Shown piece by piece: positions 4,047-19,267 of a stretch of 64,000 bases of DNA. The translations under genes and the position numbers were made by a program. Position 1 is the stretch's first letter, and each line of letters opens with the position of its first letter. The notes under the pieces are model-generated. The model ran no database searches, was not told the DNA's origin, and saw nothing but the letters and a program-made list of their open reading frames with translations. This stretch comes from an uncultured Methanosarcinales archaeon. Lineage in GTDB: Archaea > Nanobdellota > Nanobdellia > Woesearchaeales > ARS49. The stretch covers positions 9,879 to 73,878 of the forward strand of contig CAZWVL010000004.1 of the NCBI GenBank assembly GCA_964637115.1, written 5' to 3'.

Positions 4047-4417
4047 TTTCTTTCCTCCGCCATCACTTTTTTGATGTCTCTGCAGAGTTTTGTTAGGTAA
4101 GTTTGAGAAGAAACTTGAATGTGATACACATTCCTTAACCCACTACGATCATTAAATCCCATCGTATATAAGTTTCTGATATCATATCCACGTTTTCTAA
4201 GAACATTAATACGATCCAATTCCTTACCTAAATCATGTTTTTTAAATAGAACTATAACAGATAGTTCTAATTCTCTGACGTTATCATAGTAACAAATAGT
4301 TGTACGGGCGTTTATGTCATATGCACCAGATCCCTGAATATACCCATGGAAATGTTTCCTAAACACGTCCTTTATAGATTCGTCAAAGCTGATTTCTGTC
4401 ATCCCGTTTTTCTCCAC
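4043..4417 (-). CDS. hypothetical cytoplasmic protein (124 aa), paralog of 3633..4046
   Basis: Tandem paralog, 4-nt overlaps, embedded between SBP genes. Confidence 0.45.
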   Translation of the reverse strand: MEKNGMTEISFDESIKDVFRKHFHGYIQGSGAYDINARTTICYYDNVRELELSVIVLFKKHDLGKELDRINVLRKRGYDIRNLYTMGFNDRSGLRNVYHIQVSSQTYLTKLCRDIKKVMAEERK

Positions 4418-5487: not shown

Positions 5488-5489
5488 CT

Positions 5490-6566: not shown

Positions 6567-6567
6567 T

Positions 6568-7650
6568 TTAATCTTCCAGCGGAACAAATCCGCCATTCTT
6601 GACCTGCATCAGTATGAGCGGTCTGTCAACATCGCCTTTTGAATCAAAGCTGAACGTTCCGCTGACTCCATTGTAGTTCTGCGTTGCGTACAGCTGTTGT
6701 TTTATGCAGTCGGTATCATCGTTGCATTGCTCAACGATTTTTGATATCAATTTCAACGCATCATACGCATTGGCTACAAACCACGAGAAGTTCGGATCGT
6801 TGTACACGTTTGCATATTTCTGCTTGAATTCTTGTGCTTGCTGCGTGCCGGGATTAAATCCTGACGTGTAGACTATTCCTTCTCCTGCGCCTTGGGCAGC
6901 AGTTAAGAATGCTTTATCCTCCATTGCTGGTGTTGTCAAGAATGGTCCTGTATATCCCATTTCTCGGGCGATTTTCAGGTTAATCCCTATGTCTTTTGCA
7001 AATCCTGACGTATAGATGACTTCAGGTTTGGAATCGATTACTTTGCTAATCTGGGTGCGTGCATCGCCTGAGTCTTTGTCATATAGCTCTTGTGCGACAA
7101 GTGTTCCTCCTAATTCTTGGTAGCGTGTGGCAAATGGATTCGCATAAGCAAGCGGCCCTTCTGCATTTGCATTTAGCATTGCTGCTTTTTTCCAGCCTTT
7201 TGAAATGGCATATTCAGCCATTGTTTTGCCATGGCCAGTCGCTGTTTCACGGTTTCTGAATGTGTAATCGCCTGCATCGGTAATCTTTCCTGTAACTGCA
7301 GTTGAGCTCAAAATTATGACTTTCTTTTGTTCTGCAAGTGGCGCGACTGCAAGAACTGAGCCTGAAAGGACAGGGCCGATGATTATCTTCACTCCGTCAA
7401 CATCAGTGAGCTTGTTGAACGCAGTAACTGCTACTTTTGTGTCGCTCTGCTCATCTTCGAATATAACGTCGACGTTGCTGACTTCTTTGAGCGCGAGATT
7501 GATTCCTTTGGTAATTCCTTCTCCATAATTTCCTTGCGCGCCGGTTAACGTCAAAATAATGCCGACTTTGACTTTTTCTGTTGGTTGTTCAACTTGTACG
7601 CATGCGCCCAAAAGCAACAATGCTAATATGACAAAGATTATTTTTTTCAT
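6568..7650 (-). CDS. ABC transporter substrate-binding lipoprotein, LivK family (paralog 5, most diverged)
   Basis: MKKIIFVILALLLLGAC lipobox; VGIILTLTGAQGNYGE. Confidence 0.8.
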   Translation of the reverse strand: MKKIIFVILALLLLGACVQVEQPTEKVKVGIILTLTGAQGNYGEGITKGINLALKEVSNVDVIFEDEQSDTKVAVTAFNKLTDVDGVKIIIGPVLSGSVLAVAPLAEQKKVIILSSTAVTGKITDAGDYTFRNRETATGHGKTMAEYAISKGWKKAAMLNANAEGPLAYANPFATRYQELGGTLVAQELYDKDSGDARTQISKVIDSKPEVIYTSGFAKDIGINLKIAREMGYTGPFLTTPAMEDKAFLTAAQGAGEGIVYTSGFNPGTQQAQEFKQKYANVYNDPNFSWFVANAYDALKLISKIVEQCNDDTDCIKQQLYATQNYNGVSGTFSFDSKGDVDRPLILMQVKNGGFVPLED

Positions 7651-7651
7651 T

Positions 7652-8770
7652 TTATACCTCCACGTTTACCCATTTACCTTCGTTGTACTGAACAATACGA
7701 ATGGGACGAGTGGCATAATGATTACCGTCGAATGCCACGTGTCCTGCAACACCAGTGTAATCGGTTTCTGCGAGCTTGTCGCGTACGCATTCCTTGGTTA
7801 TTTCAGTGCACTTGCCTGCCGCAATAGAAATCTCGTGCATATTATCATAGGCGACTGCTGCGTCTACAGGACCGACAAGTTTTTTGCCAATGCGTGTTTC
7901 AATTTTCTGCATAAATTCAGCGAGTTTTGGTGTTGGCTGTGCTGGGTTGGCTGCTTGGTCTGCGGCATAAGCGTCTTTGAGAATGCGGTTTTTGTCCAGG
8001 TCCTTGACTGCCATTGGGTTTGCAGATAATGCAGTGCCGATGGGCAGGTATAATTGTGGAACAAAGTCCAGCTCAAGCATTTGTTTGTAAATCATGTTGC
8101 AGTCTGGGGGCCAGCAGACAAGAACAACAGCATCTGGTTGTATGCTCTTGAACTTGGTGACAGAAGTTCGCGCATCAGGGTCATTGCTGAGCTTCATTTC
8201 ATTTGCAACAATAGTACCGCCCTTTGTGACAAATTCTTTTTTGAGTGTTTCAAGACAGTCTGCGCTGAAGTCAGCGTCATTTCCGAGGAAGGCAAGGCGT
8301 TTGTGGCCGTTTTTCAGTGCCGTTTGTCCTAATTGTTTGCATTCATTTGCAGCATCACGCAAATCGCTAAATATCCAGGTGTTCTTTCTCGCATAGGTTG
8401 GGACACCAGTAAACCCGAACAATGGGACTGCATTTTGTTCCGCTACTGCGCTTGCGCCGCCTGTAACAGGCGTTGTTATCGAATAGATAAAGTCGACGCC
8501 ATCCTGCTGTATTAGTTTTGTAGTCGCAGTAGTGCCTTTTGCAGCATTATCTGCATCTTCTAGAATGGTTTGAATCTGCCTGCCGTTGATGCCGCCTGCT
8601 GCATTGATTTCTTCCTTTGCCATTTCAAGGGCTGAAACGACATATTCGCCAATCCAGGCATTTGGCCCGGTCATGGGCGCCACAATGCCGACTTTGTATG
8701 GCTGTGATTCTGTTTGTACGCACGCTGCCAAAAGCAGCAGCGTCAAAATTATCATTATTGTTTGTTTCAT
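7652..8770 (-). CDS. ABC transporter substrate-binding lipoprotein, LivK family (paralog 6)
   Basis: MKQTIMIILTLLLLAAC lipobox; VGIVAPMTGPNAWIGE; EINAAGGINGRQIQ. Confidence 0.85.
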   Translation of the reverse strand: MKQTIMIILTLLLLAACVQTESQPYKVGIVAPMTGPNAWIGEYVVSALEMAKEEINAAGGINGRQIQTILEDADNAAKGTTATTKLIQQDGVDFIYSITTPVTGGASAVAEQNAVPLFGFTGVPTYARKNTWIFSDLRDAANECKQLGQTALKNGHKRLAFLGNDADFSADCLETLKKEFVTKGGTIVANEMKLSNDPDARTSVTKFKSIQPDAVVLVCWPPDCNMIYKQMLELDFVPQLYLPIGTALSANPMAVKDLDKNRILKDAYAADQAANPAQPTPKLAEFMQKIETRIGKKLVGPVDAAVAYDNMHEISIAAGKCTEITKECVRDKLAETDYTGVAGHVAFDGNHYATRPIRIVQYNEGKWVNVEV

Positions 8771-8779
8771 TTTTCCACC

Positions 8780-9820
8780 TCAAAACTCCTTCTTCCACTC
8801 GAGCATGACAGCATGGCTGTCATCCCAGTGATTTGTAATTGGATTTTCGTTCAGATCTGCTTTGTACCAGATACGCAATCCGCTGTTGCCGAGCTCAAAT
8901 CGTAAACCGAGCATTGCACCATTGGTATCAGTTGCAAAGTTTCTTCGATATTCGATGCTCGGCGTAATGTCATTCAAGAATGCAAAGTCACCTATGTTGA
9001 GTGCGCCGCGGATTGATGCTTTTTTATCATGGGTGTAGGTTGCATCAATGCCGTAATCTCCTGTATCTTTGTCTACATAAATTTCGGCGTTGCCGAAGCT
9101 GAATGTTTTGAAGGATAATGGGAATGTTAAATCGCCCAAGACGCTAAGGGTGTTATGGTCCTCGTCATCAACGCCGAACACTTTTGCACGTTGTGCCCAC
9201 TGCTTTGAGCCGAGAGTAATACGGGCTTCTCTGAAATCGTTTTTACCGATTTTAATGTAGCTCCAGAGTGCTGCACCGTCTAATTTCAAGCTGTATGAAG
9301 CGTTTGCTTCCCAGTTGTTTCCGTTGTTAATATGTCCACCGGCGTATACTAAAGAGTCTCCAATTTCTGCTGTTAGCACACCGCTGGAATTGCCTTTGCT
9401 GTCAAATGCTGCTTCTAAGCCGAAATTGTCATCAAGTTTTAATCCGCCGAGCCAGATTACTTTGTGTTCATTGTTTTCTCTGTCTAACACATCAAATTCC
9501 AGTCCTGCAAATCCTTGTTTGGTATTGTATGAGAGGTATGCTTTGCCTTGGTCTAATGTTGCAGTATCGCGCCAGCCGAGATTAAGCCTGAAATTATCAT
9601 AGTAAAGGTCTGCACCTATTGCGGAATTGTCCTTGGAAGTTTCACCCATGACTTTGTTTCCTGCATACGAAACAATAGTCTGAGCTGCTTCATCGTGCCA
9701 TGTTTCTGCGTATACGCGTGTTTCCATTTTGACTGGTTTCACGTCCTGCGCAAACGCTCCAGTATAGAGCGCCAGCGCGGAGAGTGATGTCATCACTGCA
9801 TGTTTGAGTCTCTGTAACAT
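8780..9820 (-). CDS. secreted beta-rich protein with bacterial outer-membrane beta-barrel (porin-like) character
   Basis: Signal peptide MLQRLKHAVMTSLSALALYTGAFA|QD. About 320 aa of alternating-hydrophobic amphipathic strands with G, Y, N and D in the turns. The C-terminus is ...AVMLEWKKEF (terminal aromatic). It is the first gene of the minus-strand SBP operon. The tool ORF uses GTG at 9829. Confidence 0.5.
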   Translation of the reverse strand: MLQRLKHAVMTSLSALALYTGAFAQDVKPVKMETRVYAETWHDEAAQTIVSYAGNKVMGETSKDNSAIGADLYYDNFRLNLGWRDTATLDQGKAYLSYNTKQGFAGLEFDVLDRENNEHKVIWLGGLKLDDNFGLEAAFDSKGNSSGVLTAEIGDSLVYAGGHINNGNNWEANASYSLKLDGAALWSYIKIGKNDFREARITLGSKQWAQRAKVFGVDDEDHNTLSVLGDLTFPLSFKTFSFGNAEIYVDKDTGDYGIDATYTHDKKASIRGALNIGDFAFLNDITPSIEYRRNFATDTNGAMLGLRFELGNSGLRIWYKADLNENPITNHWDDSHAVMLEWKKEF

Positions 9821-9880
9821 TTCCACCACCTATGTTCAGTAGTGACATGAAACTAATTTATACTTTTTTATTAAACTATA

Positions 9881-9892
9881 TATACTAGTATA
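9881..9892. promoter_or_regulatory. 12-bp perfect palindrome TATACTAGTATA upstream of AbrB-PhoU paralog 1 and the porin-like gene
   Basis: AT-rich divergent intergenic region 9821..9948 with AGTATA repeats. Confidence 0.35.
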
Positions 9893-9948
9893 AAGTATAA
9901 GTATTAAAGAAAAGGTTTAAATATAAGCCATTGCATCGACGATGTAAT

Positions 9949-10860
9949 ATGAAAAGAAAAGTTGTCCGGCAGGGCGCGGCGACATTAATGGTCTCCCTGC
10001 CAAGCAAGTGGGCGCATAAAGTGCACCTGAAGAAAGGCGATGAGATTGACATAGAGGAATCCAACGGCAATCTAGTGATTTCCAAGGAAAAAGTTGAGAC
10101 CAAAAAGCAGACCACTATCAACATTTCCAGTTATTCAGAATCTTCTATCCGTGTGGCGCTGTGGAACACGTACCGCGCAGGTTACAGCCGCATTGTTGTT
10201 AATTTTTCTGATGAAAAACAGTACAAAATTGTGAAGGACGTAATTAAAAATTACGTCGTTGGCTTTGATGTTACTAAGAAAGAGAAGAATTCGTGCATTG
10301 TTGAAAATATCACAGAGCCCGCAGAAGAACAATTTGACGTTCTTTTCAGGAAAATCCTGTATAATATCTCTTTGTTAATCAACATTACTGAAGAACGGCT
10401 GAGAAATAAGCAAACGAGCGACAATTATAATGAAATTGTACTGAAAATCCACCAATATGACAACTTTTGTCGTCGGGTGATTGCGAAAAGGAATTTGTCC
10501 GGCAGTGAGGCATATTTGTTATGGTCATTCCTCACGTTGCTAATTCACGGACAGAGAGAACTGTACCATTTAAACAGGTACTTAGATAAGAACAAGGTAA
10601 AATTCACGAATTTTGAATTTTATGGCAAATTGAGAAAAATATTTGATTTATTGAACGAAGGATACGTCAAAAAAGACTTATCAAAATTTGAAAAGATTCA
10701 TGAATTGGAAAAAGATATCCTATATCAGGAATTTTATGGTTTGATTCAGAAAAATCAGAAAGAGAATATAGTGCTTTATCACATTGCTGCTGCAATAAGA
10801 CAGTTTTATTTGTCAGTAAGTCCTTTAGTGGGTCTATTATTGGAATCCAATAAGTCGTAG
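9949..10860 (+). CDS. AbrB/SpoVT-domain plus PhoU-like domain regulator (paralog 1 of 3)
   Basis: N-terminus MKRKVVRQGAATLMVSLPSKWAHKVHLKKGDEIDIEE (AbrB swapped-hairpin pattern) followed by a helical ~250-aa domain. Its 3' end overlaps the convergent kinase gene by 55 nt. The tool start at 9931 is TTG. Confidence 0.6.
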   Translation: MKRKVVRQGAATLMVSLPSKWAHKVHLKKGDEIDIEESNGNLVISKEKVETKKQTTINISSYSESSIRVALWNTYRAGYSRIVVNFSDEKQYKIVKDVIKNYVVGFDVTKKEKNSCIVENITEPAEEQFDVLFRKILYNISLLINITEERLRNKQTSDNYNEIVLKIHQYDNFCRRVIAKRNLSGSEAYLLWSFLTLLIHGQRELYHLNRYLDKNKVKFTNFEFYGKLRKIFDLLNEGYVKKDLSKFEKIHELEKDILYQEFYGLIQKNQKENIVLYHIAAAIRQFYLSVSPLVGLLLESNKS

Positions 10861-12566
10861 TGAATTCTTCCTTCATTGTCAGTTATGTGATACAATGCGA
10901 TTGCCCTGTTAATCAGGTTCCTTTTCGTTCCTGAAAGGAACTCTGAATAGCCTGATATTTCTTGGCCGTTTTTATTTGTTTTAGAATAATTCAGACTGTT
11001 TGCTTTTTTGCGTGCTTCAAATAATTCTTCTTTGTCACAGAAATATTCTGCACTGACATCAGCAAGTGTTTTATTGGTTCCAAGTTGATTTTTTAAATAC
11101 AATATTGCATAGAAACGGTATCTGAATTCATCAGGAGTGGTTTTATCATTAAATTTATTCACAAAATCATTCGGCACTAAAACTGAATTTGTGCGCATTT
11201 CTTTGTACTCATCTTGTTTTAATTTTTCGTCTTCCATGAGAGCGCTGCGCATTATTGAATAACATAAGCGCTTGCTCATTCTCCTCATATCCATTGTATT
11301 GTCAAGTGGGTCTGCAAATATTCCTTTTTTCGCCTCTTTTAACGGATTTTCTTGTTCCTTGATTTGCTTGAAATAGGGAATAAACTGTTCTGCAATGTCA
11401 GAATTTTGTAAAAGATAGTCTAATCCGCTGTCAGGATATATTCCTGTCCTTAAGGTTTCGTGTATTGCAGGTTCTTTGAATCGGTCTGCTTTTTCTTGAA
11501 TCTGCATTAATTTAAGGCCGCCAAAAATACCGGTTATAATACCAGCAATAGTTGTAAAACCTACTGCATATTTCCTGATTTTTTGCCACGGAACAATGCG
11601 CCTGTTGACAGCATCTTCAAAGTCTCCTTCGAAATTAAAATGTGCCATATTATCAATATACTTCGGATGTTGGACACTGAGGCAATTGCGGAGCATTTTT
11701 CTGTATTGTCGTGGAACAAGGGCGAGGCGTTTTTCCAGAGCAGCGTCGTGTTCATCAAGATTGACATTTGCTATTTGCTTGCCATCCTGTTTAAGTGTTG
11801 CTTTGAGTATCTTTCCATCGACGAAAATTGGTGTTCCATCTTCATCAGCTACCAATTCAATTTTAAATAGCGGTTCTCCGGTTAAAGCATAGAACATTGT
11901 TGCACCTAATGCATAAAACTCGCTTTGTATTGTTGCCTTGGCTTCTTTTTTGTCAAGGAGTGCATTGAGTATGTTTGGCGCAGTAAATTGTGTTCCACCT
12001 CTGGTCGGCAGGAATGATTCTGTAATGTCTCCGATTTTACCTGCTGTCTGCAGGTCTGAAAGCTTGGCGCTCTCATCACGTATTCCAATGAGTATATTTG
12101 ATGGCTTGATGTCTCTGTGCAAAAGGCCTTCGCGCCAGTGTAAATGTTTCAAGCCTGCTGCAACTTGAGAGAATATGTATTTGAACTTCTCTGGTTCGTT
12201 TATTTTACCAAATCGAACACGTTGCTCTAACGAAATGGCTTCATAATATTCTTCAACTGTGATTGTCTTGTCGCCCGTCTTGAACGCATCATTAATCTCT
12301 ACAATGTTCGGATGCTTGACTTTGTTCAGTGCTAGGACTTCGCGTTCATCCAGGTCACCTTTTGAGCGGTTAATGGCTGTCGTGATTGAATTCTCATCAA
12401 TGTGCTCTTTGGGAATCTTGACCACACGGACCTTTTCCACGCTGCCGTGCTTGTAAAGTGCTTCGTAAACGTCTCTGGTGTGGCCTTCTCCAAGTTTGCG
12501 AATTATCGTATACCCGTTTTCCTTGAGTAATTGCTCTACTTTAGAGTCGAGTTTAGTTGCTGCCAT
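10806..12566 (-). CDS. Hanks-type Ser/Thr protein kinase, single-pass membrane, with a ~230-aa C-terminal domain beyond the TM
   Basis: GEGHTRDVY...VVK (VAIK-like), catalytic loop HRDIKPSNILI, then one TM segment YAVGFTTIAGIITGIFGGLKL. Confidence 0.85.
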   Translation of the reverse strand: MAATKLDSKVEQLLKENGYTIIRKLGEGHTRDVYEALYKHGSVEKVRVVKIPKEHIDENSITTAINRSKGDLDEREVLALNKVKHPNIVEINDAFKTGDKTITVEEYYEAISLEQRVRFGKINEPEKFKYIFSQVAAGLKHLHWREGLLHRDIKPSNILIGIRDESAKLSDLQTAGKIGDITESFLPTRGGTQFTAPNILNALLDKKEAKATIQSEFYALGATMFYALTGEPLFKIELVADEDGTPIFVDGKILKATLKQDGKQIANVNLDEHDAALEKRLALVPRQYRKMLRNCLSVQHPKYIDNMAHFNFEGDFEDAVNRRIVPWQKIRKYAVGFTTIAGIITGIFGGLKLMQIQEKADRFKEPAIHETLRTGIYPDSGLDYLLQNSDIAEQFIPYFKQIKEQENPLKEAKKGIFADPLDNTMDMRRMSKRLCYSIMRSALMEDEKLKQDEYKEMRTNSVLVPNDFVNKFNDKTTPDEFRYRFYAILYLKNQLGTNKTLADVSAEYFCDKEELFEARKKANSLNYSKTNKNGQEISGYSEFLSGTKRNLINRAIALYHITDNEGRIHYDLLDSNNRPTKGLTDK

Positions 12567-12699
12567 CGTTCTCCTTCAGAAGCTTGTTTACGGCAAATTC
12601 TACAAAATGAGACTTGTTGCGAAAAGCCCCGTTTTGTAGTTTTTCCTCTACCTGCTTGATGGTATTCTCGTCTATGGATATGCTGACTTTGACCTTCAT
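12553..12699 (-). CDS. small ribbon-helix-helix (CopG/Arc-like) DNA-binding protein, 48 aa, overlapping the kinase start
   Basis: Hand-translated: MKVKVSISIDENTIKQVEEKLQNGAFRNKSHFVEFAVNKLLKENDGSN, a strand-helix-helix pattern. Its stop lies 11 nt inside the kinase ORF (ATGGCAGCAACTAA). It is below the 60-aa cutoff of the ORF track. Confidence 0.45.
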   Translation of the reverse strand: MKVKVSISIDENTIKQVEEKLQNGAFRNKSHFVEFAVNKLLKENDGSN

Positions 12700-12795
12700 A
12701 CGGGGTAGTAAGAATTGCCACCTTTATAAACCTTTCTCTTTTTAGCCACTATCAAGTGGTAACATTTATATACAGGTTATACATAACCTATCCAT
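12700..12795. promoter_or_regulatory. divergent promoter/operator region between the RHH-kinase and AbrB-like-kinase operons
   Basis: TATA-like TTTATAAA (~12723) and TTTATATA (~12766). Perfect palindromes CCACT-atca-AGTGG (~12744) and AGGTTAT-ac-ATAACCT (~12774). Confidence 0.45.
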
Positions 12796-12939
12796 ATGAA
12801 ACAGTTCATAATCACCAAGAAGATTGCCAAGCACGGCTCTCAGGCTATTATTGTAGTTCCGAGAGTTCTTGAATCTTATCTAAAGCCAAAGACGTTGGTA
12901 AAATTGACGATTGACGTGTTGGAGGAGCCAGATGAATAA
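12796..12939 (+). CDS. small AbrB/MazE-like protein, 47 aa
   Basis: Hand-translated: MKQFIITKKIAKHGSQAIIVVPRVLESYLKPKTLVKLTIDVLEEPDE. HGSQAIIVVPRVL fits the AbrB/MazE looped-hinge hairpin. Its stop overlaps the ATG of the next ORF (ATGAATAA). Confidence 0.4.
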   Translation: MKQFIITKKIAKHGSQAIIVVPRVLESYLKPKTLVKLTIDVLEEPDE

Positions 12940-13456
12940 TCCTCTAACTATTGACTTCAAACTGCAAAGAGAACATTTTGGTCAACTAATTGATATTGAC
13001 AGAATTGTTTTCCGGCAAGAACCTCATCCTAATCAGGTTGCAATAGCAGAGAGGCGACCTGAATTGTACACGGTTATCAGACGCGGAGACCATGTTGTTG
13101 GCTATGGTTTAGTTTTGCCATTGCGAAAAGCTGCGTTAACGGCTTTGAAAGAAGGAAAAATATGGGAAGATGAACTAAACATCGGCTGTCTAACCGACCG
13201 GTTGCCAGCTGGCTTTTACATTTCTTCAATTGCTGCAATACAAGATGCTTCTGAACGAGAGCGCGCAATGATTGTTGGAAGCACAGTCAGCCCTCCATTC
13301 CGCACACCTTTTGAAACAATTGCAATTCCTATTTCAGAAGCTGGTAACAGAATTTGTAGAAATCTGCTTCGTATGATTCCTGTACGAGCACGCACCGAAG
13401 TGAAAGGAATCGATGGCTATACGCCGACAACATACCAGCGTGGAGGAGCCAAATGA
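12932..13456 (+). CDS. hypothetical protein (174 aa), possibly an acyl-CoA N-acyltransferase-like fold
   Basis: ORF in an operon between the AbrB-like ORF and the APH-like kinase; its stop overlaps the kinase ATG (ATGA). The tool start at 12911 is TTG. The fold call is weak. Confidence 0.4.
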   Translation: MNNPLTIDFKLQREHFGQLIDIDRIVFRQEPHPNQVAIAERRPELYTVIRRGDHVVGYGLVLPLRKAALTALKEGKIWEDELNIGCLTDRLPAGFYISSIAAIQDASERERAMIVGSTVSPPFRTPFETIAIPISEAGNRICRNLLRMIPVRARTEVKGIDGYTPTTYQRGGAK

Positions 13457-15648
13457 AACCGCTTGAACTCCAGCTGAAAGAAATTCTTGGTGTTAAGGAA
13501 TACAACCGTTTTGCAGATACTGTGCTTTTCCCTGCTATCGAGCAGCTTGCTGAGAGCGGAAAGCTGAGCAATTCTGATCTTGCCAAATTGGCTAAATTGA
13601 CAAAGACCTATGGAGCAGGAATTTTTGACGTTGCCGCTTCAGACGTGGGAGAGGCAACCAAGCATAATCTGTCAGACGGCTTCTCAATTATTGCAAAATA
13701 CAAGTTGAATGAGGATTTGGAATTCAATCTGTTCGTGAAGAAATTCAGCGACAAAAAAAGCTTTGACCGGGGTGTTCTCATACAGGAAGAAATTGCGCAG
13801 CATTTGAGAAACACTGATTTGGCAGGCGTCGTTCCAGAACAGCTATATAAAAACCGGGGCAAGCGCATTGTTGTTATGCCGCTGGTCGAGGCAAAATCAC
13901 TCAATGCCGTCTTGCCTGAATCGAAAGACAAGGAAGAATTGCTTAGAAAAACAATAACAGAATATTTGAAAATAACTGATCATATTGGAGCTAAAAAAGT
14001 CTTTGTGCCTCCAAAAAGAAACGCCCTCGGAAAACTCTGGTATGATGATTTCAAACTGCCTTCATTGCAGAATTTCGACAGATTTTTTGCAAAGGGCTTT
14101 GGTGCTGATGAAAAAATTACAGAAAGCTACAAGCAGCACATAGGCAGCCGTTTGAACGGAAATACAGGCGATTTCATCCACGGTGATTTGCACCCAGGCA
14201 ACATTCTGATTAATGACAAGACCCATTTCATAGACTGGGAGCTGGCCGCAAATGGTTTTACTGAATTTGACCTTTACAAATTGTTCACAAAATCCAATGT
14301 GTCTGATGACCTCGAAGACCGTTTGCTTGCATATACTGTTATGACTAAGGAAAAACTGCGTGCAAAGCGCGAAAACAGGCAGCCAGCCAGCGCTGACACG
14401 CACAGATTGCTATTTGAAGCATCTAAGACACGATACAGGTTAAATCAGATTACTCAGGACTTGTTGACTGCTGAACGCTACAACAAGAATGCGCAAAAAG
14501 ATGTAAAACGCCACGACAAACTTGAAAAAATGGCATTAACTGCCTATAATATTGCCCTGCGCCATATAGAAAAAGCTGAAAGTGAGGGAATTCTCAGTGC
14601 TGATTTCAGGCTGACAATTGAAGATTTTGTACAAAAGAACAAGCCATATAACCGTATTAATAATGTTGAATTCGCTCAATTATTGAGCGTATATAATCCT
14701 CACACAACTCTTTCACAGGATAATCTTGTTTCGCACGGCACTGAAATAGGAGCGCCCGTTGACAAAGAATCCAAGCAAAAGAATTTAGAAATTATAAGGA
14801 AGAGTTTGCACAAGAAGGATTGGGGCAAGATTGCAAAACTTGGAATAGCTGCAGCAGTGTTGCTCTGTAGTGCAAGTTATGGTGGACGGAAGTATTTGGA
14901 GAGTGAACTTGCAAGAATAAAACTCGAGGAAAAGGCTAAACAGGAAGACGCCGATAGTTGGTTTAGAAATGATTTCTGCAAAATTTACGAGACGCGTATT
15001 GAGGCTGAGCTGCATGGTGGAAAGATTCGATGGGCTTATACAGAAGCTGACAAGAGACCGTTGGGAAAAGTGCGGTTAATCGAAGATCGTGAGTTGATCA
15101 AAAATACCTGTGACAAGTATAATCTTGACTTACAATTTACCAGGAGAATGTATAAGATAAATGCTGCTTTTGCTAACGTTGAAAATAATAAAATGAGTGA
15201 TAGAGGCATAAATTTCCTTGATCCATATAGATTCGTATATACCAAAGGTTCTGAGGCTGATCATTATGATCCAGTAATCAATCTTGAATTTGGTGCAAAA
15301 AGATTATCGCGATTGTTTGATAAGTATAAAGTGGATAGAAATATGATTAAAAATGGGCATCATGTCAATAATGGCAACGATGCAATAAAGAATAATGATT
15401 CTTCTTTACAACCATTGATTCGGGCATTAAAACAGTTTTATACCTTTCAAAAGAATTATACCGAAGATGAGGAAGATAAAAGATATGAAGAGCAGCTAAG
15501 CGATGATAAAAAATATAATAAAAAGCTTGCACGTGGCGTACGTGAAATCATATACGCCTTGTTGACAAATGGTCCCCAATCTGATTTTAATGGTGATATT
15601 GTATACTTGGAACAATCAGGAATTCCTGACAATTTCATGCGAGAGTAA
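13453..15648 (+). CDS. membrane-anchored APH/choline-kinase-like protein kinase-fold protein (731 aa)
   Basis: Catalytic motif HGDLHPGNILI and IDWE (APH/CAK family), one TM segment (IAKLGIAAAVLLCSASYGG), and a ~250-aa C-terminal domain. Confidence 0.7.
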   Translation: MKPLELQLKEILGVKEYNRFADTVLFPAIEQLAESGKLSNSDLAKLAKLTKTYGAGIFDVAASDVGEATKHNLSDGFSIIAKYKLNEDLEFNLFVKKFSDKKSFDRGVLIQEEIAQHLRNTDLAGVVPEQLYKNRGKRIVVMPLVEAKSLNAVLPESKDKEELLRKTITEYLKITDHIGAKKVFVPPKRNALGKLWYDDFKLPSLQNFDRFFAKGFGADEKITESYKQHIGSRLNGNTGDFIHGDLHPGNILINDKTHFIDWELAANGFTEFDLYKLFTKSNVSDDLEDRLLAYTVMTKEKLRAKRENRQPASADTHRLLFEASKTRYRLNQITQDLLTAERYNKNAQKDVKRHDKLEKMALTAYNIALRHIEKAESEGILSADFRLTIEDFVQKNKPYNRINNVEFAQLLSVYNPHTTLSQDNLVSHGTEIGAPVDKESKQKNLEIIRKSLHKKDWGKIAKLGIAAAVLLCSASYGGRKYLESELARIKLEEKAKQEDADSWFRNDFCKIYETRIEAELHGGKIRWAYTEADKRPLGKVRLIEDRELIKNTCDKYNLDLQFTRRMYKINAAFANVENNKMSDRGINFLDPYRFVYTKGSEADHYDPVINLEFGAKRLSRLFDKYKVDRNMIKNGHHVNNGNDAIKNNDSSLQPLIRALKQFYTFQKNYTEDEEDKRYEEQLSDDKKYNKKLARGVREIIYALLTNGPQSDFNGDIVYLEQSGIPDNFMRE

Positions 15649-16537
15649 GCGTTTGCCCCATCATTCTTACTATTAATTCTGTCATCTCCCGCAAAAAGCG
15701 CAGGACATATGTCTCCTTTGCCGATTTAGTGCTGTTTAGTTTTCTATCGATTTCAAAAGCAATGCTGTCACGCTCTTTTGCGAGTGCAGCTGCTGCTTCA
15801 TACGAGAATTCATAGAATAATCCTTCAAATTTCTTGAAAAGGCGCTGTATTCGGTCATAGAGGGCAATTACCGATGATTCTAATACAACCTTGTTTTTGG
15901 TGATATAGCCGGTCAGCAGCTTGTATTCGTCGCCAAGCTGCTCAAGAAGCATAACAACAGCATACATGACTGGAGTCTTCGAATATTCCGGATACCCATA
16001 TTTGTTTAGAATACGAAAACAATGGTCCGTTACCCTGTTTATGTTGGCTTCCATATCCTCAAGATAGGCGAGGTCTGTTTCTTTTCGTTTTAAGGTTTGA
16101 AGGCTTTCGTCAGCTACGGCGCTTATCATGAAAAATACCCGCCGAAGTATTGGGTCGAATGCGTTTTCAGACACACCCGAAATATCTTTGATGATAAGAT
16201 AATTTTTGCCTTGCTGGATTACTTCCATTCCTATCATTTCCCTGACGCGCTGCTGAATGAGTCTTGCCTTGTTTAACGAGTCAAACTTCACTTCCAGTTC
16301 ATCAACGCCTTCCAAGTATTTTGCAGCAACAATTCTTTTGAGCAAATTGTCAAGCTTGCTTAGATCAATGGTCTCCCGCATATGCTTGGGAACGGTTGGC
16401 GGGGTCATTACAAGCGTCGTATCTTTCTCTTCCAGTTCTATTTCATCACCCGCTTTCAGATTAAGCTTCTTTGTCCACTTGGCAGGCAGTGAAATAGTCA
16501 GTGTTGCCGCTCCCTGCTTGATTATCTTGCGTCGCAT
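15635..16537 (-). CDS. AbrB/SpoVT-domain plus PhoU-like domain regulator (paralog 2 of 3)
   Basis: MRRKIIKQGAATLTISLPAKWTKKLNLKAGDEIELEE. Its 3' end overlaps the convergent APH-like kinase by 14 nt. The tool start at 16558 is TTG. Confidence 0.6.
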   Translation of the reverse strand: MRRKIIKQGAATLTISLPAKWTKKLNLKAGDEIELEEKDTTLVMTPPTVPKHMRETIDLSKLDNLLKRIVAAKYLEGVDELEVKFDSLNKARLIQQRVREMIGMEVIQQGKNYLIIKDISGVSENAFDPILRRVFFMISAVADESLQTLKRKETDLAYLEDMEANINRVTDHCFRILNKYGYPEYSKTPVMYAVVMLLEQLGDEYKLLTGYITKNKVVLESSVIALYDRIQRLFKKFEGLFYEFSYEAAAALAKERDSIAFEIDRKLNSTKSAKETYVLRFLREMTELIVRMMGQTLTLA

Positions 16538-16594
16538 ATCGTCGATAGTCGCTTTCAAGTATATAAATTTTGCCTTTAGAATATAAGAATATGC

Positions 16595-16608
16595 TAGAAT
16601 ATATTCTA
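16595..16608. promoter_or_regulatory. 14-bp perfect palindrome TAGAATATATTCTA in the divergent promoter region of AbrB-PhoU paralog 2
   Basis: It is flanked by three direct AGAATAT repeats (16577-16602) and lies ~60 nt upstream of the 16675 ORF and ~40 nt upstream of the 16537 ORF. Confidence 0.4.
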
Positions 16609-16674
16609 TATGAAAAAAGAATATATTTCCGATAAGTTGTCACTTGTAGAGTAAGACAAGATTTGGGTGGTAAA

Positions 16675-17094
16675 ATGAACAAAAGAAACGATAACGGTCA
16701 TGTCAAATATTCACCGGATGCTTCATTAGTTAACAAGCTCAAGGTTGGAGATCATTATACTGAGATTTGGCAAGGTTTGCCCGATCACCCATTCGAGCCT
16801 TCTGCAACAACAGGTGGCAAGTCAGGCTTAAAGTATGAAACAAATGATAAATACGTCTGGGTTACGCCAAATACTGCTCGTGCACTGGAACAAAATCCGG
16901 ATGAAATTCTGTATGCCAGTATTAAGAAATCTAAAGACAAAGAGTATTGCGCCAGATGGGTAGAATCCATCAGCGGAACTTCCTTTGGAAATACTCTTGA
17001 AAGTGCTATTTCTCGAGCTCAAGAACTGAATATCGAAGAGTTACATAACAGAATCGAGAAGGATCGAAGAAAGAAATTGGAGGCCAAAAAATGA
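16675..17094 (+). CDS. hypothetical protein (~139 aa) leading the plus-strand SBP operon
   Basis: ORF whose stop overlaps the ATG of the following SBP gene (ATGA). The tool start is TTG at 16663. Confidence 0.4.
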   Translation: MNKRNDNGHVKYSPDASLVNKLKVGDHYTEIWQGLPDHPFEPSATTGGKSGLKYETNDKYVWVTPNTARALEQNPDEILYASIKKSKDKEYCARWVESISGTSFGNTLESAISRAQELNIEELHNRIEKDRRKKLEAKK

Positions 17095-18176
17095 AAACAG
17101 CAATAATTGCAATTCTAGTGCTGTTTCTAGCAGCATGCGTGCAAATAGAAGAAACAAAGCCATTCAAATTAGGTGCACCACTGCCTTTGACTGGCTCAAA
17201 TGCGTTCTATGGCGACTTTACAAAGTATGGTATAGAGCTTGCTGTTGAAGACATTAACAAAGCAGGCGGAATCAATGGTAGAACAGTCCAGGTTATCTAT
17301 GAAGATACTGCTGGAGATAAGACAAAAGCCACAACCGCGGCACAGAAGCTGATTCACATCGATGGTGTGGACGCTCTTATTACCTCCACGACTCCGATGA
17401 GCGGTGCGATTTCTCCGGTTGCTGAAGAGAACCGCATTCCGTTAATTTATGCTTCTGCAACAAATTCATTCACTATAAACAAAACGTATGTTTTCAAAGA
17501 TTATACAGATGCAGCCGGCATCTGTGAGCTTCTGATGAAACAGGTGAAAAAGGATGGGCATGAAAAAGTGGCCGTCTTTGGTACTGATGCTGAATTTACT
17601 CAGCTTTGTAAGAAAGGAGCAGAAAAAGTTGGAAAACTCAACTCATTTGAGGTTTATCCTGGCGGCGAAACTGATTTCAAAACACAGTTTGCCAAGATTA
17701 AGAATGCTGAAAACACTGCTTTGATTCTTTCGGTGTTCGCTGGAGATTGCCCGCATGCGTACAAGCAGATTCGCGAACTTGGGTTGAAGGCAAAATTGTA
17801 CACAGCTTTCCAGAGTTTTGCGTGCGGCAGTGCCGACAACACAAAAGCAAATGCCGACTTGCTTGAGGGCGCATATGGTGCTGATGTTGCTTTAGATGAA
17901 GAAAGCGATGATCCTGATTTTCTCGCTTTTAAGAAGCGCCTTGATGAAAGAGGCTGGACTACGCAAATTCGCGGAAGCGCCATTATGTACGATAGCACAA
18001 TGGAATTCGCAAAAGCCTTCCAGGATTGCCAAGATGCTCTTTGTGTAGCCAATAATCTCAGAGCTCTGCAGATGAATGGAATTTCTGGACACATCAGTTA
18101 TGGTGGAGACCAGATTGTTGAGCGCGAAATAATGTTGGTGAAATACGAAAACGGCAAATGGAGGAAAGTACAATGA
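17091..18176 (+). CDS. ABC transporter substrate-binding lipoprotein, LivK family (paralog 7)
   Basis: MKTAIIAILVLFLAAC lipobox; LGAPLPLTGSNAFYGD; DINKAGGINGRTVQV. It is the closest paralog to 4399..5487. Confidence 0.85.
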   Translation: MKTAIIAILVLFLAACVQIEETKPFKLGAPLPLTGSNAFYGDFTKYGIELAVEDINKAGGINGRTVQVIYEDTAGDKTKATTAAQKLIHIDGVDALITSTTPMSGAISPVAEENRIPLIYASATNSFTINKTYVFKDYTDAAGICELLMKQVKKDGHEKVAVFGTDAEFTQLCKKGAEKVGKLNSFEVYPGGETDFKTQFAKIKNAENTALILSVFAGDCPHAYKQIRELGLKAKLYTAFQSFACGSADNTKANADLLEGAYGADVALDEESDDPDFLAFKKRLDERGWTTQIRGSAIMYDSTMEFAKAFQDCQDALCVANNLRALQMNGISGHISYGGDQIVEREIMLVKYENGKWRKVQ

Positions 18177-19267
18177 AAACGGCAATATTCACAATAATTG
18201 CATTGCTGCTTTTGGCAGCGTGCGCAACGCAAGAATCAGTACAAACAACGCCTATTGCAAAAGAACCGGCAGTTGTCAAGATTGGGGTAACAGTGCCATT
18301 GACTGGTGATGTTGCATTCTTAGGAGAAGCAACGCGAAATTCCCTCGAATTGGCATTAAAAGAAGTGCAGGGAACAAAATACAAGTACGAGCTTGTGTTT
18401 GAAGATGACAAGCTTGATGCAAAACTGGCTTCCACAACTGCAACTAAATTGATTCAAGTTGACAATGTTGATGCAATCATCAGTTTGAGCTCTGGCACGG
18501 GGAATGTAGTTACCCCTCTTGCCGAGCAGAATAAGGTAATTCACTTTGGCATTGCTTCTGATGCAAATGTTGCAAAAGGAATGTTCAATTTCATCCATTG
18601 GACGCCGCCTGATGAGGAAGCTCGTTTATGGGTGCAAAAAGCACAGGAACATGGCTATAATCGCGTCGCAATTATTGTATTGCAGCATCCAGGTGCAATA
18701 GCAGTGGTTGATGCTGCAAAGAAACACGCAAAAGGTACCGACATCGAACTACATGAGGAGTTCTTTAATCCGGGCGAGAAGGATTTCAGAACAGTTCTGG
18801 TCAGGTCCAAGCAATTTAATCCTGATGCTTATATGCTCATGGCGTTCTCTCCTGAACTTGACATATTGCACAAGCAGTTGAAGGAATTAGGCATTAAGGC
18901 ACCTTTGACATCCATCGAGGCATTCGAACTTAGCAATGACCCTTCTCAGTTTGAAGGTCACTGGTATGTCAACGCTGCAGACCCGACAGGCGCATTTGCT
19001 GACAAGTATAAGGCTGCGTACAACAAAGAGCCGGTATTTGGCGGACCAAATGCATACGACATCTTCAAGATGATCGTGAAAGGCTTTGAGGATTCAGGCA
19101 AAGATGCATCTGTAAAACCTTCACCTGAAGAAGTTGCTGCTGCACTTATGCAGATAAAGGACTTCGATGGTGCACTGGGCAAATTGACTGTCGGCGAAGA
19201 TGGTATTGTCTGGAGCCCGGCAGTTGTCAGAACGATTCTGAACGGCAAGCCGGTGACTATCAAATAG
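18173..19267 (+). CDS. ABC transporter substrate-binding lipoprotein, LivK family (paralog 8)
   Basis: MKTAIFTIIALLLLAAC lipobox; IGVTVPLTGDVAFLGE. ATGA overlap with the preceding SBP gene. Confidence 0.85.
   Translation: MKTAIFTIIALLLLAACATQESVQTTPIAKEPAVVKIGVTVPLTGDVAFLGEATRNSLELALKEVQGTKYKYELVFEDDKLDAKLASTTATKLIQVDNVDAIISLSSGTGNVVTPLAEQNKVIHFGIASDANVAKGMFNFIHWTPPDEEARLWVQKAQEHGYNRVAIIVLQHPGAIAVVDAAKKHAKGTDIELHEEFFNPGEKDFRTVLVRSKQFNPDAYMLMAFSPELDILHKQLKELGIKAPLTSIEAFELSNDPSQFEGHWYVNAADPTGAFADKYKAAYNKEPVFGGPNAYDIFKMIVKGFEDSGKDASVKPSPEEVAAALMQIKDFDGALGKLTVGEDGIVWSPAVVRTILNGKPVTIK

What the first reader, a model, noticed from the sequence alone, without database searches (positions are those of the whole stretch)
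9821..16662. Mirror-symmetric kinase and regulator module inserted between the two arms of the LIV transporter super-locus
Between the outward-facing SBP arms sits a near-palindromic gene arrangement. AbrB-PhoU(+) runs into a Hanks kinase on the minus strand, which is preceded by an RHH ORF. A divergent promoter separates this from an AbrB-like ORF, a 174-aa ORF and an APH-like kinase on the plus strand, which runs into AbrB-PhoU(-). Both kinases are single-pass membrane proteins with an N-terminal kinase domain and a ~230-250-aa domain beyond the TM. Both are capped by a convergent AbrB-PhoU gene overlapping their 3' ends (55 nt and 14 nt). I do not know this architecture as a described system. 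It looks like a paired transmembrane sensor-kinase circuit with dedicated small DNA-binding partners, possibly controlling the flanking amino-acid uptake system.
Basis: partly seen in the sequence, partly recalled or inferred. Interest (0 to 1): 0.85.

Follow-up and report, generated by a model that had tools for sequence, protein, structure and literature searches.

The report
Twin membrane-kinase and AbrB-PhoU cassettes
The locus holds two head-to-head copies of a three-gene cassette (a tiny DNA-binding protein, a single-pass membrane protein kinase, and a convergent AbrB-PhoU transcription factor) that is conserved, with its own promoter elements, across hundreds of DPANN (Woese-/Pace-/Nanoarchaeota) genomes and appears to be an undescribed signalling module.

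Summary
AbrB-PhoU-A (9949-10860,+) overlaps a Hanks kinase (10806-12566,-) by 55 nt. An RHH-like mini-ORF (12553-12699,-) overlaps the kinase start. A 96-nt divergent promoter leads to a 47-aa mini-ORF, a 174-aa ORF and an APH-fold kinase (13453-15648,+). That kinase overlaps AbrB-PhoU-B (15635-16537,-) by 14 nt.

The arrangement is not chance:
- Anchoring on AbrB-PhoU in species-representative genomes, 31 of 32 close relatives have an abutting convergent kinase, and 33 of 42 kinases have a mini-ORF.
- Anchoring on a promoter DNA motif in metagenomes, 18 of 18 testable loci do.
- The AbrB-PhoU subtype tracks the kinase class (44/0/2/11).
- Both promoter types carry strongly conserved operator-like elements.

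The conserved unit is one cassette. The mirrored pair occurs only in this lineage. The link to the LIV transporter holds for the APH arm (5/5 loci, plus AlaE exporters inside related operons) but not for the Hanks arm (3/80).

The most likely function is one-step transmembrane Ser/Thr-kinase signalling to a cognate AbrB-PhoU regulator, with autoregulation by the mini-protein. This function is inferred, not shown. I found no description in the searched literature.

The parts
8780..9829 (-). Gene for a 349-aa protein with a signal-peptide-like N-terminus, rich in beta strand.
   Evidence: An iterated profile finds 26 family members in the fetched loci. Of these, 25 lie divergently upstream of an AbrB-PhoU gene. 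There is no Pfam or PDB sequence hit for the window copy. Two of 17 members weakly match the OMP beta-barrel model.
9857..9904 (+). Conserved upstream block of the A-type AbrB-PhoU promoter: TTTATACTTTTTTATTAAACTATATATACTAGTATAAAGTATAAGTAT.
   Evidence: The core motif occurs 37 times in 2.28 Mb, and 32 of those are directly upstream of AbrB-PhoU genes. It is unique in the window. Exact 25-mer matches in metagenomes are followed by an AbrB-PhoU gene in 35 of 44 contigs directly, and in 7 more after an inserted gene.
9916..9923 (+). TATA-like box (TTTAAATA) about 26-30 nt upstream of the AbrB-PhoU-A ATG. A leaderless transcript is inferred.
   Evidence: Sequence. The box sits at the conserved position in the promoter alignment. 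Promoter function is inferred from general archaeal promoter geometry.
9949..10860 (+). AbrB-PhoU-A. It has an AbrB/SpoVT domain (about 9949-10095), an Alba/SpoVS-like alpha/beta middle domain (about 10108-10308) and a PhoU-like six-helix bundle (about 10324-10851).
10806..12566 (-). Hanks-type membrane Ser/Thr kinase. The kinase domain is 11673-12512, the TM helix 11514-11570, and the family-specific helical ectodomain 10809-11513.
10806..10860 (.). 55-nt convergent 3' overlap of AbrB-PhoU-A and the Hanks kinase.
   Evidence: An overlap of 55-58 nt is kept in L001-L004 and L046. Across the family the stop-to-stop spacing ranges from -90 to +373 nt, with a mode of -4.
12553..12699 (-). 48-aa RHH-like mini-ORF, translationally coupled to the Hanks kinase by a 14-nt overlap.
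   Evidence: Pfam RHH_1 scores 15.8 bits, below the cut-off. NCBIfam CdrS gives E 3e-4. The same family sits upstream of kinases in L001, L002, L026, L043, L044 and L072.
12723..12772 (.). Divergent promoter core. It contains the TATA box for the RHH operon (12723-12730, read on the minus strand), the shared O1 palindrome CCACTATCAAGTGG (12746-12759), and the TATA box for the mini-ORF operon (12765-12772).
   Evidence: The O1 inverted repeat sits upstream of the TATA box in 19 of 28 mini-ORF promoters and 4 of 4 RHH promoters. It is about 35-fold enriched there.
12778..12785 (+). O2 element (TATACATA) between the TATA box and the ATG of the mini-ORF.
   Evidence: O2 is present in 25 of 28 mini-AbrB promoters and 0 of 4 RHH promoters. 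Of 22 O2 pairs in 940 kb, 18 lie in these upstream regions.
12796..12939 (+). 47-aa mini-ORF ('mini-AbrB'), sequence MKQFIITKKIAKHGSQAIIVVPRVLE..LKP.T.VKLTIDVLEE.
   Evidence: Extremely conserved, 45-83% identity, upstream of both Hanks and APH kinases in 29 of 42 genome loci. The AbrB fold is not verified.
12932..13456 (+). 174-aa ORF of unknown function, inserted between the mini-ORF and the APH kinase.
   Evidence: Present only in the window, L001 and L002. No Pfam, NCBIfam, PADLOC or PDB hit. In other loci the same slot holds AlaE.
13453..15648 (+). APH-fold membrane kinase. The kinase domain is about 13732-14325, the TM segment 14830-14886, and the ectodomain 14887-15645.
   Evidence: Pfam APH E 8e-11. 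K96, H243-G244-D245 and D261-W262-E263 are invariant. The best NCBIfam hit is PRK11768, a serine/threonine protein kinase. The family is rare, with 7 hits.
15635..16537 (-). AbrB-PhoU-B, a paralogue of A (23% identity) and the cognate partner of the APH kinase. The 3' overlap of 14 nt is 15635-15648.
   Evidence: The B subtype pairs with APH-type kinases in 11 of 13 paired cases.
16560..16628 (-). B-type promoter. It contains a TATA box (16560-16567) and repeated (A)GAATATATTC(T) palindromes.
   Evidence: The same layout is conserved in L002 and L005.

Best explanation
The region contains two copies of one conserved cassette, placed head to head.

Each cassette encodes three products:
1. A 46-48-aa DNA-binding mini-protein, either the highly conserved 'mini-AbrB' or an RHH substitute. 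It is translationally coupled to the kinase gene.
2. A single-pass membrane protein kinase with a cytoplasmic N-terminal catalytic domain (Hanks or APH fold) and an extracytoplasmic C-terminal sensor domain.
3. A convergently transcribed transcription factor with AbrB, Alba-like and PhoU-like domains.

Proposed mechanism (all steps inferred):
- The ectodomain senses an external cue.
- The kinase binds and/or phosphorylates its cognate AbrB-PhoU regulator. The PhoU-like bundle acts as the kinase-docking module, as PhoU does for the sensor kinase PhoR.
- This changes binding of the AbrB domain to the conserved operators at the cassette promoters and at target genes.
- The mini-protein autorepresses the kinase operon at the O2 site, which overlaps the transcription start.

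The APH-type cassette is tied to amino-acid transport (LIV importer, AlaE exporter). The Hanks-type cassette is a general module of DPANN archaea.

What is shown: gene order, folds, intact catalytic motifs, co-occurrence, subtype co-variation and conserved cis-elements.
What is inferred: phosphotransfer, docking, operator assignment, the signal and the target genes.
For: Conservation of the trio in unrelated flanks:
- Kinase homologues at 33-86% identity keep the trio.
- APH-kinase homologues at 42-66% identity keep it too.

Unbiased anchoring on AbrB-PhoU in species-representative genomes (315 loci, essentially all Woese-/Pace-/Nanoarchaeota):
- 31 of 32 close relatives with enough sequence have an abutting convergent kinase.
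- 42 of 59 loci overall have one.
- 33 of 42 kinases have a mini-AbrB or RHH ORF upstream.

Independent anchoring on a 25-nt promoter motif in metagenomes:
- 42 of 44 loci have a downstream AbrB-PhoU gene.
- 18 of 18 testable loci have a convergent kinase.

Partner specificity: A-type with Hanks 44, A-type with APH 0, B-type with Hanks 2, B-type with APH 11.

Kinases look active:
- Catalytic residues are invariant.
- Each has a single hydrophobic segment with positively charged residues on the kinase-domain side.
- Ectodomains are swapped between kinase classes in L076.

Cis-elements:
- A conserved A-block lies upstream of AbrB-PhoU genes.
- O1 and O2 lie at kinase-operon promoters. O2 co-varies with mini-AbrB against RHH, 25 of 28 versus 0 of 4.

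Precedents:
- PhoU bridges an ABC transporter and the sensor kinase PhoR through its PAS domain (abstracts of PMC13577022 and PMC9239213).
- B. subtilis AbrB is phosphorylated by the Hanks kinases PrkC, PrkD and YabT, which changes its DNA binding (Kobir 2014, as cited in PMC6213207).

APH arm and amino acids:
- 5 of 5 loci sit next to LIV genes.
- AlaE lies inside related operons in L007, L074 and L075.
Against: - No experiment or phosphosite data exist. The substrate relationship is inferred from gene linkage only.
- No cognate phosphatase is seen in the cassette.
- The mini-ORF's AbrB fold is not statistically supported.
- APH-fold enzymes are mostly small-molecule kinases.
- The ectodomains match no known ligand-binding fold.
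- TM hydropathy is modest.
- More distant AbrB-PhoU paralogues often lack a kinase: only 11 of 27 have one. The third paralogue in the window, at 61317-62219, also lacks one.
- The cassette's DNA motifs are absent from the LIV promoters in the window.
- The co-occurrence counts are not phylogenetically independent and rest on MAGs and simple ORF calling.
Confidence: 0.58

Rival explanations
1. The cassette is a toxin-antitoxin-like or anti-virus module. The kinase is a toxin or abortive-infection effector. The overlapping upstream mini AbrB/RHH protein is its antitoxin and autorepressor. AbrB-PhoU is an accessory regulator.
For: - The layout is antitoxin-first, with a small AbrB- or RHH-type ORF overlapping the start of the larger gene. 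AbrB-like and RHH ORFs are interchanged at the same position.
- The AbrB domains match MazE and Doc-partner models weakly.
- The Hanks domain matches the kinase domains of defence systems mad6 and PD-T4-6.
Against: - The PADLOC hits cover only the generic kinase domain. No other component matches.
- The mini-proteins are 46-48 aa, long enough only for a DNA-binding core, with no toxin-neutralising extension.
- The kinases are membrane-anchored with large ectodomains.
- The cassette is found in 315 species-level genomes of a reduced-genome lineage, among housekeeping genes. Partners co-diverge and promoters are conserved. This pattern fits vertical inheritance, not a mobile defence island.
Confidence: 0.1
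2. The APH-fold protein is a small-molecule kinase, acting for example on an amino acid or a related metabolite. It works in amino-acid uptake or export metabolism and is not a signalling protein kinase. AbrB-PhoU-B would then be an ordinary regulator of that operon.
For: - The Pfam APH family and the NCBIfam hits to MTR kinase, thiamine kinase and macrolide phosphotransferase are small-molecule kinases.
- The gene always lies among LIV genes, and AlaE, a PLP-dependent enzyme gene (in L001 and L002) or the 174-aa ORF sits in or beside the operon.
Against: - The architecture matches the Hanks cassette: mini-AbrB, TM segment, ectodomain and convergent co-varying AbrB-PhoU.
- The best NCBIfam hit is a protein kinase family, PRK11768.
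- An APH-like kinase in L076 carries the Hanks-type ectodomain.
- A membrane anchor with a 250-aa external domain is unusual for a metabolic kinase.
Confidence: 0.2
3. The AbrB-PhoU proteins are classical phosphate-homeostasis regulators, and the kinases sense phosphate.
For: The PhoU fold, and JGI's automatic name 'phosphate uptake regulator' for homologues.
Against: - No pst or pho genes appear in the annotated neighbourhoods inspected.
- The Pfam PhoU model is not matched.
- AbrB-PhoU is a multi-copy transcription-factor family in archaea without a demonstrated phosphate role (PMC6316755).
Confidence: 0.05
4. The arrangement is coincidental dense packing of unrelated genes in a compact genome.
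For: Short overlaps are common in compact archaeal genomes. The stop-to-stop spacing varies from -90 to +373 nt.
Against: - 31 of 32 and 18 of 18 co-occurrence in two independently anchored surveys.
- Subtype co-variation.
- Conserved promoters.
Confidence: 0.02

Closest known systems
Bacterial receptor-type Hanks kinases with transcription-factor substrates (PknB/PrkC type; B. subtilis PrkC, PrkD and YabT phosphorylating AbrB)
   Same: - A precedent exists for an AbrB-type regulator as kinase substrate (PMC6213207).
   Different: - The ectodomain is an orphan helical domain, not PASTA.
- The kinase has DLQ instead of DFG.
- The regulator is a three-domain AbrB-Alba-like-PhoU protein encoded convergently, with its 3' end abutting the kinase gene.
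- There is an extra mini-ORF.
- The lineage is DPANN archaea.
PhoU-PhoR-PstSCAB phosphate signalling
   Same: A PhoU-fold protein is genetically linked to a membrane sensor kinase and, in the APH arm, to an ABC transporter. PhoU is known to dock on the sensor kinase and on the transporter.
   Different: - Here the kinase is a Ser/Thr or APH type, not a histidine kinase.
- The PhoU-like domain is fused to a DNA-binding domain.
- The transporter is a LIV type.
- The Pfam PhoU model is not matched.
- No response regulator is present.
Archaeal SpoVT/AbrB-PhoU transcription regulators (for example T. kodakarensis TK2245; the PhoU family of P. furiosus)
   Same: The same AbrB + PhoU domain combination, recognised as a multi-copy archaeal transcription-factor family (PMC7325993 and PMC6316755).
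   Different: I found no paper reporting a link of that family to membrane kinases or mini-ORFs. The DPANN proteins form their own subfamilies, each with a dedicated kinase partner and a conserved promoter.
Type II toxin-antitoxin operons with AbrB/MazE or RHH antitoxins (and kinase toxins such as HipA)
   Same: A small AbrB-like or RHH ORF comes first and overlaps the downstream gene. DNA-binding folds are interchanged at that position. Autoregulation at an operator overlapping the promoter is likely.
   Different: - The mini-proteins lack a neutralising tail.
- The kinase is a membrane receptor type.
- There is a third, convergent regulator.
- The genomic context is housekeeping, and the pattern looks vertically inherited.

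Membership tests
Hanks-type (eukaryote-like) protein kinases | Pfam Pkinase domain above the gathering score | tested here: met
   112.4 bits against 31.7
Hanks-type (eukaryote-like) protein kinases | Catalytic residues: ATP-binding Lys, HRD Asp, catalytic-loop Asn, Mg-binding Asp of DFG | tested here: met
   K50 is nearly invariant. H150, R151, D152, N157 and D171 are invariant in 29 sequences. The DFG motif is replaced by DLQ, with the Asp kept.
Hanks-type (eukaryote-like) protein kinases | Bilobal kinase fold | tested here: met
   [not shown]
APH / eukaryote-like kinase (ELK) fold phosphotransferases | Pfam APH above the gathering score, plus the HxDxxxxN catalytic loop and the Mg-binding Asp | tested here: met
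   42.7 bits against 23.2. K96, H243-G244-D245 and D261-W262-E263 are invariant in 7 sequences.
APH / eukaryote-like kinase (ELK) fold phosphotransferases | Substrate class (small molecule or protein) | not testable with these tools
   Only the best NCBIfam hit, PRK11768 Ser/Thr protein kinase at E 1e-6 and far below its cut-off, gives a hint.
AbrB/MazE/SpoVT DNA-binding domain (the two 300-aa regulators) | Pfam PF04014 above the gathering score at the N-terminus | tested here: met
   29.7 and 36.1 bits against 24.7. Foldseek gives MazE 1mvf at probability 0.99.
PhoU | Pfam PhoU (PF01895) sequence match | tested here: not met
   No hit for A or B at E<=0.1. The third paralogue scores 13.3 bits against 23.5. 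A PDB sequence profile search finds no PhoU.
PhoU | Six-helix (two three-helix-bundle) PhoU fold | tested here: met
   [not shown]
PhoU | Paired E(D)xxxD metal-binding motifs (from my own knowledge of PhoU structures) | tested here: inconclusive
   One motif, E127-x3-D131, is largely conserved. The second, at 253-257, is not conserved across the family.
AbrB/SpoVT domain (the 47-aa mini-ORF) | Significant sequence or profile match to AbrB-type domains | tested here: inconclusive
   No Pfam or NCBIfam hit. hhalign against the AbrB domain of AbrB-PhoU is in register but gives E 0.045-0.09. PDB profile search finds nothing relevant.
Ribbon-helix-helix (CopG/CdrS-like) proteins (the 48-aa ORF) | Pfam RHH_1 or NCBIfam CdrS above the cut-off | tested here: inconclusive
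   RHH_1 scores 15.8 bits against 20.5. CdrS scores 20.5 bits against 100, E 3e-4. The beta-strand and helix pattern is conserved in 8 homologues.
Type II toxin-antitoxin systems | Known toxin family, and an antitoxin with a toxin-neutralising region | tested here: not met
   The kinases match only generic kinase models. The mini-proteins are 46-48 aa. No PADLOC hit falls outside the kinase domain.
Two-component systems | Histidine kinase and receiver domains | tested here: not met
   No such Pfam domains in any cassette protein.

The most novel reading that the evidence does not exclude
The cassette is a DPANN-specific one-step transmembrane signalling system that functionally replaces two-component systems.

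- An orphan ectodomain senses a host-derived or environmental cue.
- The kinase docks on and phosphorylates a PhoU-domain transcription factor.
- The 46-aa mini-AbrB acts as an autorepressor or a heterodimerising modulator.
- Outputs include a divergently encoded secreted protein that resembles a beta-barrel (the orf349 family) and, in the APH version, amino-acid import and export.

On this reading the system would regulate the symbiont's surface and its nutrient scavenging.
Probability: 0.3. Interest if true: 0.8.

Novelty: new variant of a known kind. Interest (0 to 1): 0.68.

Why it matters
DPANN archaea have tiny genomes and few recognisable regulators, and their signalling is almost unknown. 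This cassette is widespread: 315 species-level genomes in one scan. It has a strict architecture, matched kinase and regulator subfamilies, and promoter DNA that is nearly invariant between species whose proteins are only about 50% identical.

It offers a concrete, testable signalling pathway. It comes with candidate operators, candidate phospho-acceptors (the invariant T13 and S17 in the AbrB domain) and candidate outputs. It would also extend the role of PhoU as a kinase adaptor from histidine kinases to Ser/Thr kinases.

Tried and rejected
Identity of the ectodomains:
- hhalign of the two ectodomains against each other shows no homology (E 0.18).
- PDB profile searches with either ectodomain give nothing.
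- The only Pfam hint is a 32-residue match to SLT in the APH ectodomain, E 0.03-0.04, which I treat as noise.
- An exhaustive search shows that the Hanks ectodomain occurs only in this kinase family.

Other proteins:
- PhoU by sequence was not detected. The question was resolved by fold.
- The mini-ORF as AbrB is not significant.
- The 174-aa ORF has no hit anywhere.
- orf143 (16663-17094) is not a conserved neighbour.

Alternative classifications:
- A defence system: PADLOC hits cover only the kinase domain.
- A structured RNA in the conserved promoters: no Rfam match at E<=1.

A LIV regulon via shared motifs: none of the A-block, B palindrome, O1 or O2 elements occurs at the LIV promoters in the window.

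Literature: no paper links AbrB-PhoU to kinases or describes DPANN kinase cassettes.

The listing of cluster members gave no organism names.

Full report
**1. What is there**

| Gene | Coordinates | Notes |
|---|---|---|
| AbrB-PhoU-A | 9949-10860 (+) | converges on the Hanks kinase, 55 nt overlap |
| Hanks kinase | 10806-12566 (-), 586 aa | |
| RHH-like ORF | 12553-12699 (-), 48 aa | overlaps the kinase start by 14 nt |
| Intergenic region | 12700-12795, 96 nt | |
| Mini-ORF | 12796-12939 (+), 47 aa | |
| 174-aa ORF | 12932-13456 (+) | |
| APH-fold kinase | 13453-15648 (+), 731 aa | converges on AbrB-PhoU-B, 14 nt overlap |
| AbrB-PhoU-B | 15635-16537 (-) | |

LIV-type binding-protein genes flank both sides: six on the left and two on the right, followed by two permease and two ATPase genes. 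The organism is an archaeon of the Woese-/Pace-/Nanoarchaeota (DPANN) group. This follows from the record titles of nearly all related loci.

**2. The proteins**

The Hanks kinase:
- It has all catalytic residues, with DLQ in place of DFG.
- It has one hydrophobic helix at aa 333-351.
- It has a well-predicted helical C-terminal domain. That domain matches nothing in Pfam or the PDB and occurs only at the C-terminus of this kinase family.

The APH-fold protein:
- It keeps the ATP-binding Lys, the HGD catalytic loop and a DWE metal site.
- It has one hydrophobic segment at aa 460-478 and a different, unrecognised C-terminal domain.

The two 300-aa regulators:
- They are paralogues with 23% identity.
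- The AF2 model of A has pLDDT 89. It shows an AbrB/MazE-like N-terminal domain, an Alba/SpoVS-like alpha/beta middle domain and a six-helix bundle.
- The PhoU call is therefore right at the level of fold, although the Pfam PhoU model is not matched.

The mini-ORFs:
- The 48-aa ORF is RHH-like but scores below the cut-offs.
- The 47-aa ORF aligns in register with AbrB domains, but not significantly.

**3. Is the arrangement conserved?**

Yes, and strongly.

Hanks-kinase homologues at 86, 56, 45, 40 and 33% identity all have a 45-49-aa ORF overlapping their start and a convergent AbrB-PhoU of 300-305 aa at their 3' end. The surrounding genes are otherwise unrelated.

The APH-kinase family is rare, with 7 hits. 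It shows the same layout in every locus examined.

To avoid bias I anchored on the regulator. A scan of one genome per species found 315 loci, of which 80 were fetched.
- Among close relatives with at least 2.2 kb of sequence downstream, 31 of 32 have an abutting convergent kinase. The exception has a 324-aa insertion followed by the kinase.
- Over all tiers, 42 of 59 have a kinase.
- Of those 42 kinases, 33 have a mini-ORF upstream.

A second survey was anchored only on a 25-nt promoter motif in metagenomes and is independent of the first.
- An AbrB-PhoU gene lies downstream in 42 of 44 contigs.
- A convergent kinase is present in 18 of 18 testable contigs.

**4. Specific pairing**

AbrB-PhoU proteins fall into subtypes that track the kinase class: A with Hanks 44, A with APH 0, B with Hanks 2, B with APH 11.

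The mini-ORF upstream of most kinases of either class is the same family as the window's 47-aa ORF. It is remarkably conserved, at 45-83% identity, while the kinases are at 30-45%.

The RHH ORF is a lineage-restricted substitute at the same position: the window, L001, L002, L026, L043, L044 and L072.

Ectodomains vary between kinases, and one APH-like kinase (L076) carries the Hanks-type ectodomain. This modularity is typical of sensor proteins.

**5. Cis-regulatory DNA (not part of the original finding)**

All four transcription units in the window have a TATA-like box about 26-30 nt upstream of the start codon, which suggests leaderless mRNAs (inference from general archaeal promoter geometry).

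Upstream of A-type AbrB-PhoU genes lies a block of about 45 nt, TtTAaACtTTtTtATTAaAcTATATATAtTAGTATAAAt.TaTAtAc. It is more than 80% conserved between species whose proteins are about 50% identical. Its core occurs 37 times in 2.28 Mb, 32 of them at this position. The window copy is 9857-9904 and is unique in the window.

B-type promoters share a different set of (A)GAATATATTC(T) palindromes.

Kinase-operon promoters carry two elements:
- O1 is an inverted repeat, (C/T)ACT-N4-6-AGT(A/G)GT, upstream of the TATA box.
- O2 is a pair of TATGTATA/TATACATA repeats between the TATA box and the ATG.
- Of 22 O2 pairs in 940 kb, 18 fall in the 0.6% of sequence that lies upstream of mini-ORFs.
- O2 is present in 25 of 28 mini-AbrB promoters and in 0 of 4 RHH promoters. 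This points to the mini-protein as its binder.

In the window a single O1 palindrome, CCACTATCAAGTGG (12746-12759), sits exactly between the two divergent TATA boxes. It is the physical centre of the 'mirror'.

No Rfam family matches these regions.

**6. Relation to the LIV transporter**

The APH-type cassette with this ectodomain is next to LIV binding-protein or ABC genes in 5 of 5 loci.

In three loci (L007, L074, L075) an AlaE-type alanine exporter gene sits between the mini-ORF and the APH-like kinase. That is the slot occupied in the window by the unknown 174-aa ORF.

By contrast, only 3 of 80 regulator-anchored loci have an SBP gene within 8 kb. None of the cassette's DNA motifs occurs at the LIV promoters in the window.

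So a link to amino-acid transport is plausible for the APH arm only, and it rests on co-location.

**7. Mechanism**

The best-supported reading is a one-step transmembrane signalling cassette. The steps are:
- a sensor ectodomain;
- a cytoplasmic Ser/Thr (or APH-fold) kinase;
- a cognate AbrB-PhoU transcription factor whose PhoU-like bundle serves as the kinase-interaction module, as PhoU does with PhoR;
- control of the factor's AbrB domain by phosphorylation, as shown for B. subtilis AbrB and Hanks kinases;
- autorepression of the kinase operon by the mini-protein.

T13 and S17 in the DNA-binding loop of the AbrB domain are invariant and are candidate acceptor sites. That is speculative.

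Every step beyond gene linkage, fold and motif conservation is inferred.

The rivals are less well supported, for the reasons listed with each:
- a toxin-antitoxin or defence logic;
- a metabolic small-molecule kinase for the APH arm;
- classical phosphate control;
- chance.

**8. Comparison and novelty**

Receptor-type Hanks kinases, AbrB-PhoU transcription factors and PhoU-kinase docking are each known. What appears new is:
- their fixed combination with a mini-ORF;
- the convergent abutting gene order;
- the matched subfamilies;
- the conserved promoters across DPANN archaea.

I found no description of this in the searched literature. I therefore class it as a new variant of a known kind.

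It is conserved in L002 and degraded in L001, where the APH kinase and its regulator are lost but the mini-ORF and the 174-aa ORF remain.

**9. Caveats**

- All comparative data come from metagenome-assembled genomes and simple ORF calling.
- The counts are not corrected for shared ancestry.
- Some MAG taxonomic labels look unreliable, for example 'uncultured Methanosarcinales' and 'Coatesbacteria'.
- The TM predictions rest on hydropathy and AF2 helices only.

Noticed in passing
window 8780-9829 (-): A 349-aa protein with a signal-peptide-like N-terminus, rich in beta strand and ending in ...EWKKEF. It belongs to a divergent family. Of 26 members found in the fetched loci, 25 lie divergently upstream of an AbrB-PhoU gene, 13 of them within about 100-160 nt and sharing the conserved A-block region. 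Two of 17 members weakly match the Pfam OMP beta-barrel model. It may be a regulated target or a fourth component of the cassette.
   Followed up: partly
window 9857-9904 and the equivalent positions in 31 other loci: A block of about 45 nt upstream of AbrB-PhoU genes is nearly invariant between species whose proteins are only about 50% identical. It contains several TATA-like and GTATA/TATAC units. What binds it is unknown.
   Followed up: partly
window 61317-62219 (+): A third AbrB-PhoU paralogue: Pfam AbrB domain, and a weak PhoU hit at E 0.11. It is not next to any kinase or mini-ORF. It belongs to a kinase-less subgroup that is also common in other genomes.
   Followed up: partly
L001 8789-9871 and L002 8855-9871, compared with window 12700-12795: In the two closest relatives a gene for a PLP-dependent enzyme (Pfam PALP) sits immediately upstream of the RHH ORF, in the same operon. 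It is absent from the window, where the RHH ORF has its own promoter.
   Followed up: no
L007 113-673; L074 11173-11823; L075 11180-11692: AlaE-family (L-alanine exporter) genes are inserted between the mini-AbrB ORF and APH-like kinases. This is the slot occupied by the unknown 174-aa ORF in the window.
   Followed up: partly
L076 8884-11241: An APH-like membrane kinase whose C-terminal domain matches the ectodomain of the Hanks-kinase family (domain E 1.7e-9). This indicates ectodomain shuffling between the two kinase classes.
   Followed up: no
L072 8968-15206; L041 2719-5914; the JGI contig of P0034: Tandem arrays of two or three kinase genes between the mini-ORF and the convergent AbrB-PhoU gene. 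In the P0034 contig each kinase has its own mini-ORF.
   Followed up: no
L019, L037, L044, L051, L128, L114: Extra copies of the mini-AbrB ORF that are not next to a kinase, up to three per 16-kb locus. The mini-protein may therefore have roles beyond the cassette.
   Followed up: no
window 1442-8770 and 17091-19267: Eight paralogous LIV-type substrate-binding-protein genes (six on the minus strand, two on the plus strand) serve a single set of permease and ATPase genes (19726-22851). That is an unusually large SBP expansion for a small-genome archaeon.
   Followed up: no
window 10806-10860 and homologous loci: The 55-58-nt antisense overlap encodes conserved C-terminal tails in both proteins...LDSNNRPTKGLTDK in the kinase and ...SPLVGLLLESNKS in the regulator. 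It is kept in L001-L004 and L046, but not family-wide.
   Followed up: partly
record titles of L008, L018, L020, L023, L045, L070, L076, L080, L081: Several MAGs carrying the cassette are labelled 'uncultured Methanosarcinales archaeon', 'bacterium' or 'Coatesbacteria'. Given the gene content, these labels are probably binning or labelling errors.
   Followed up: no
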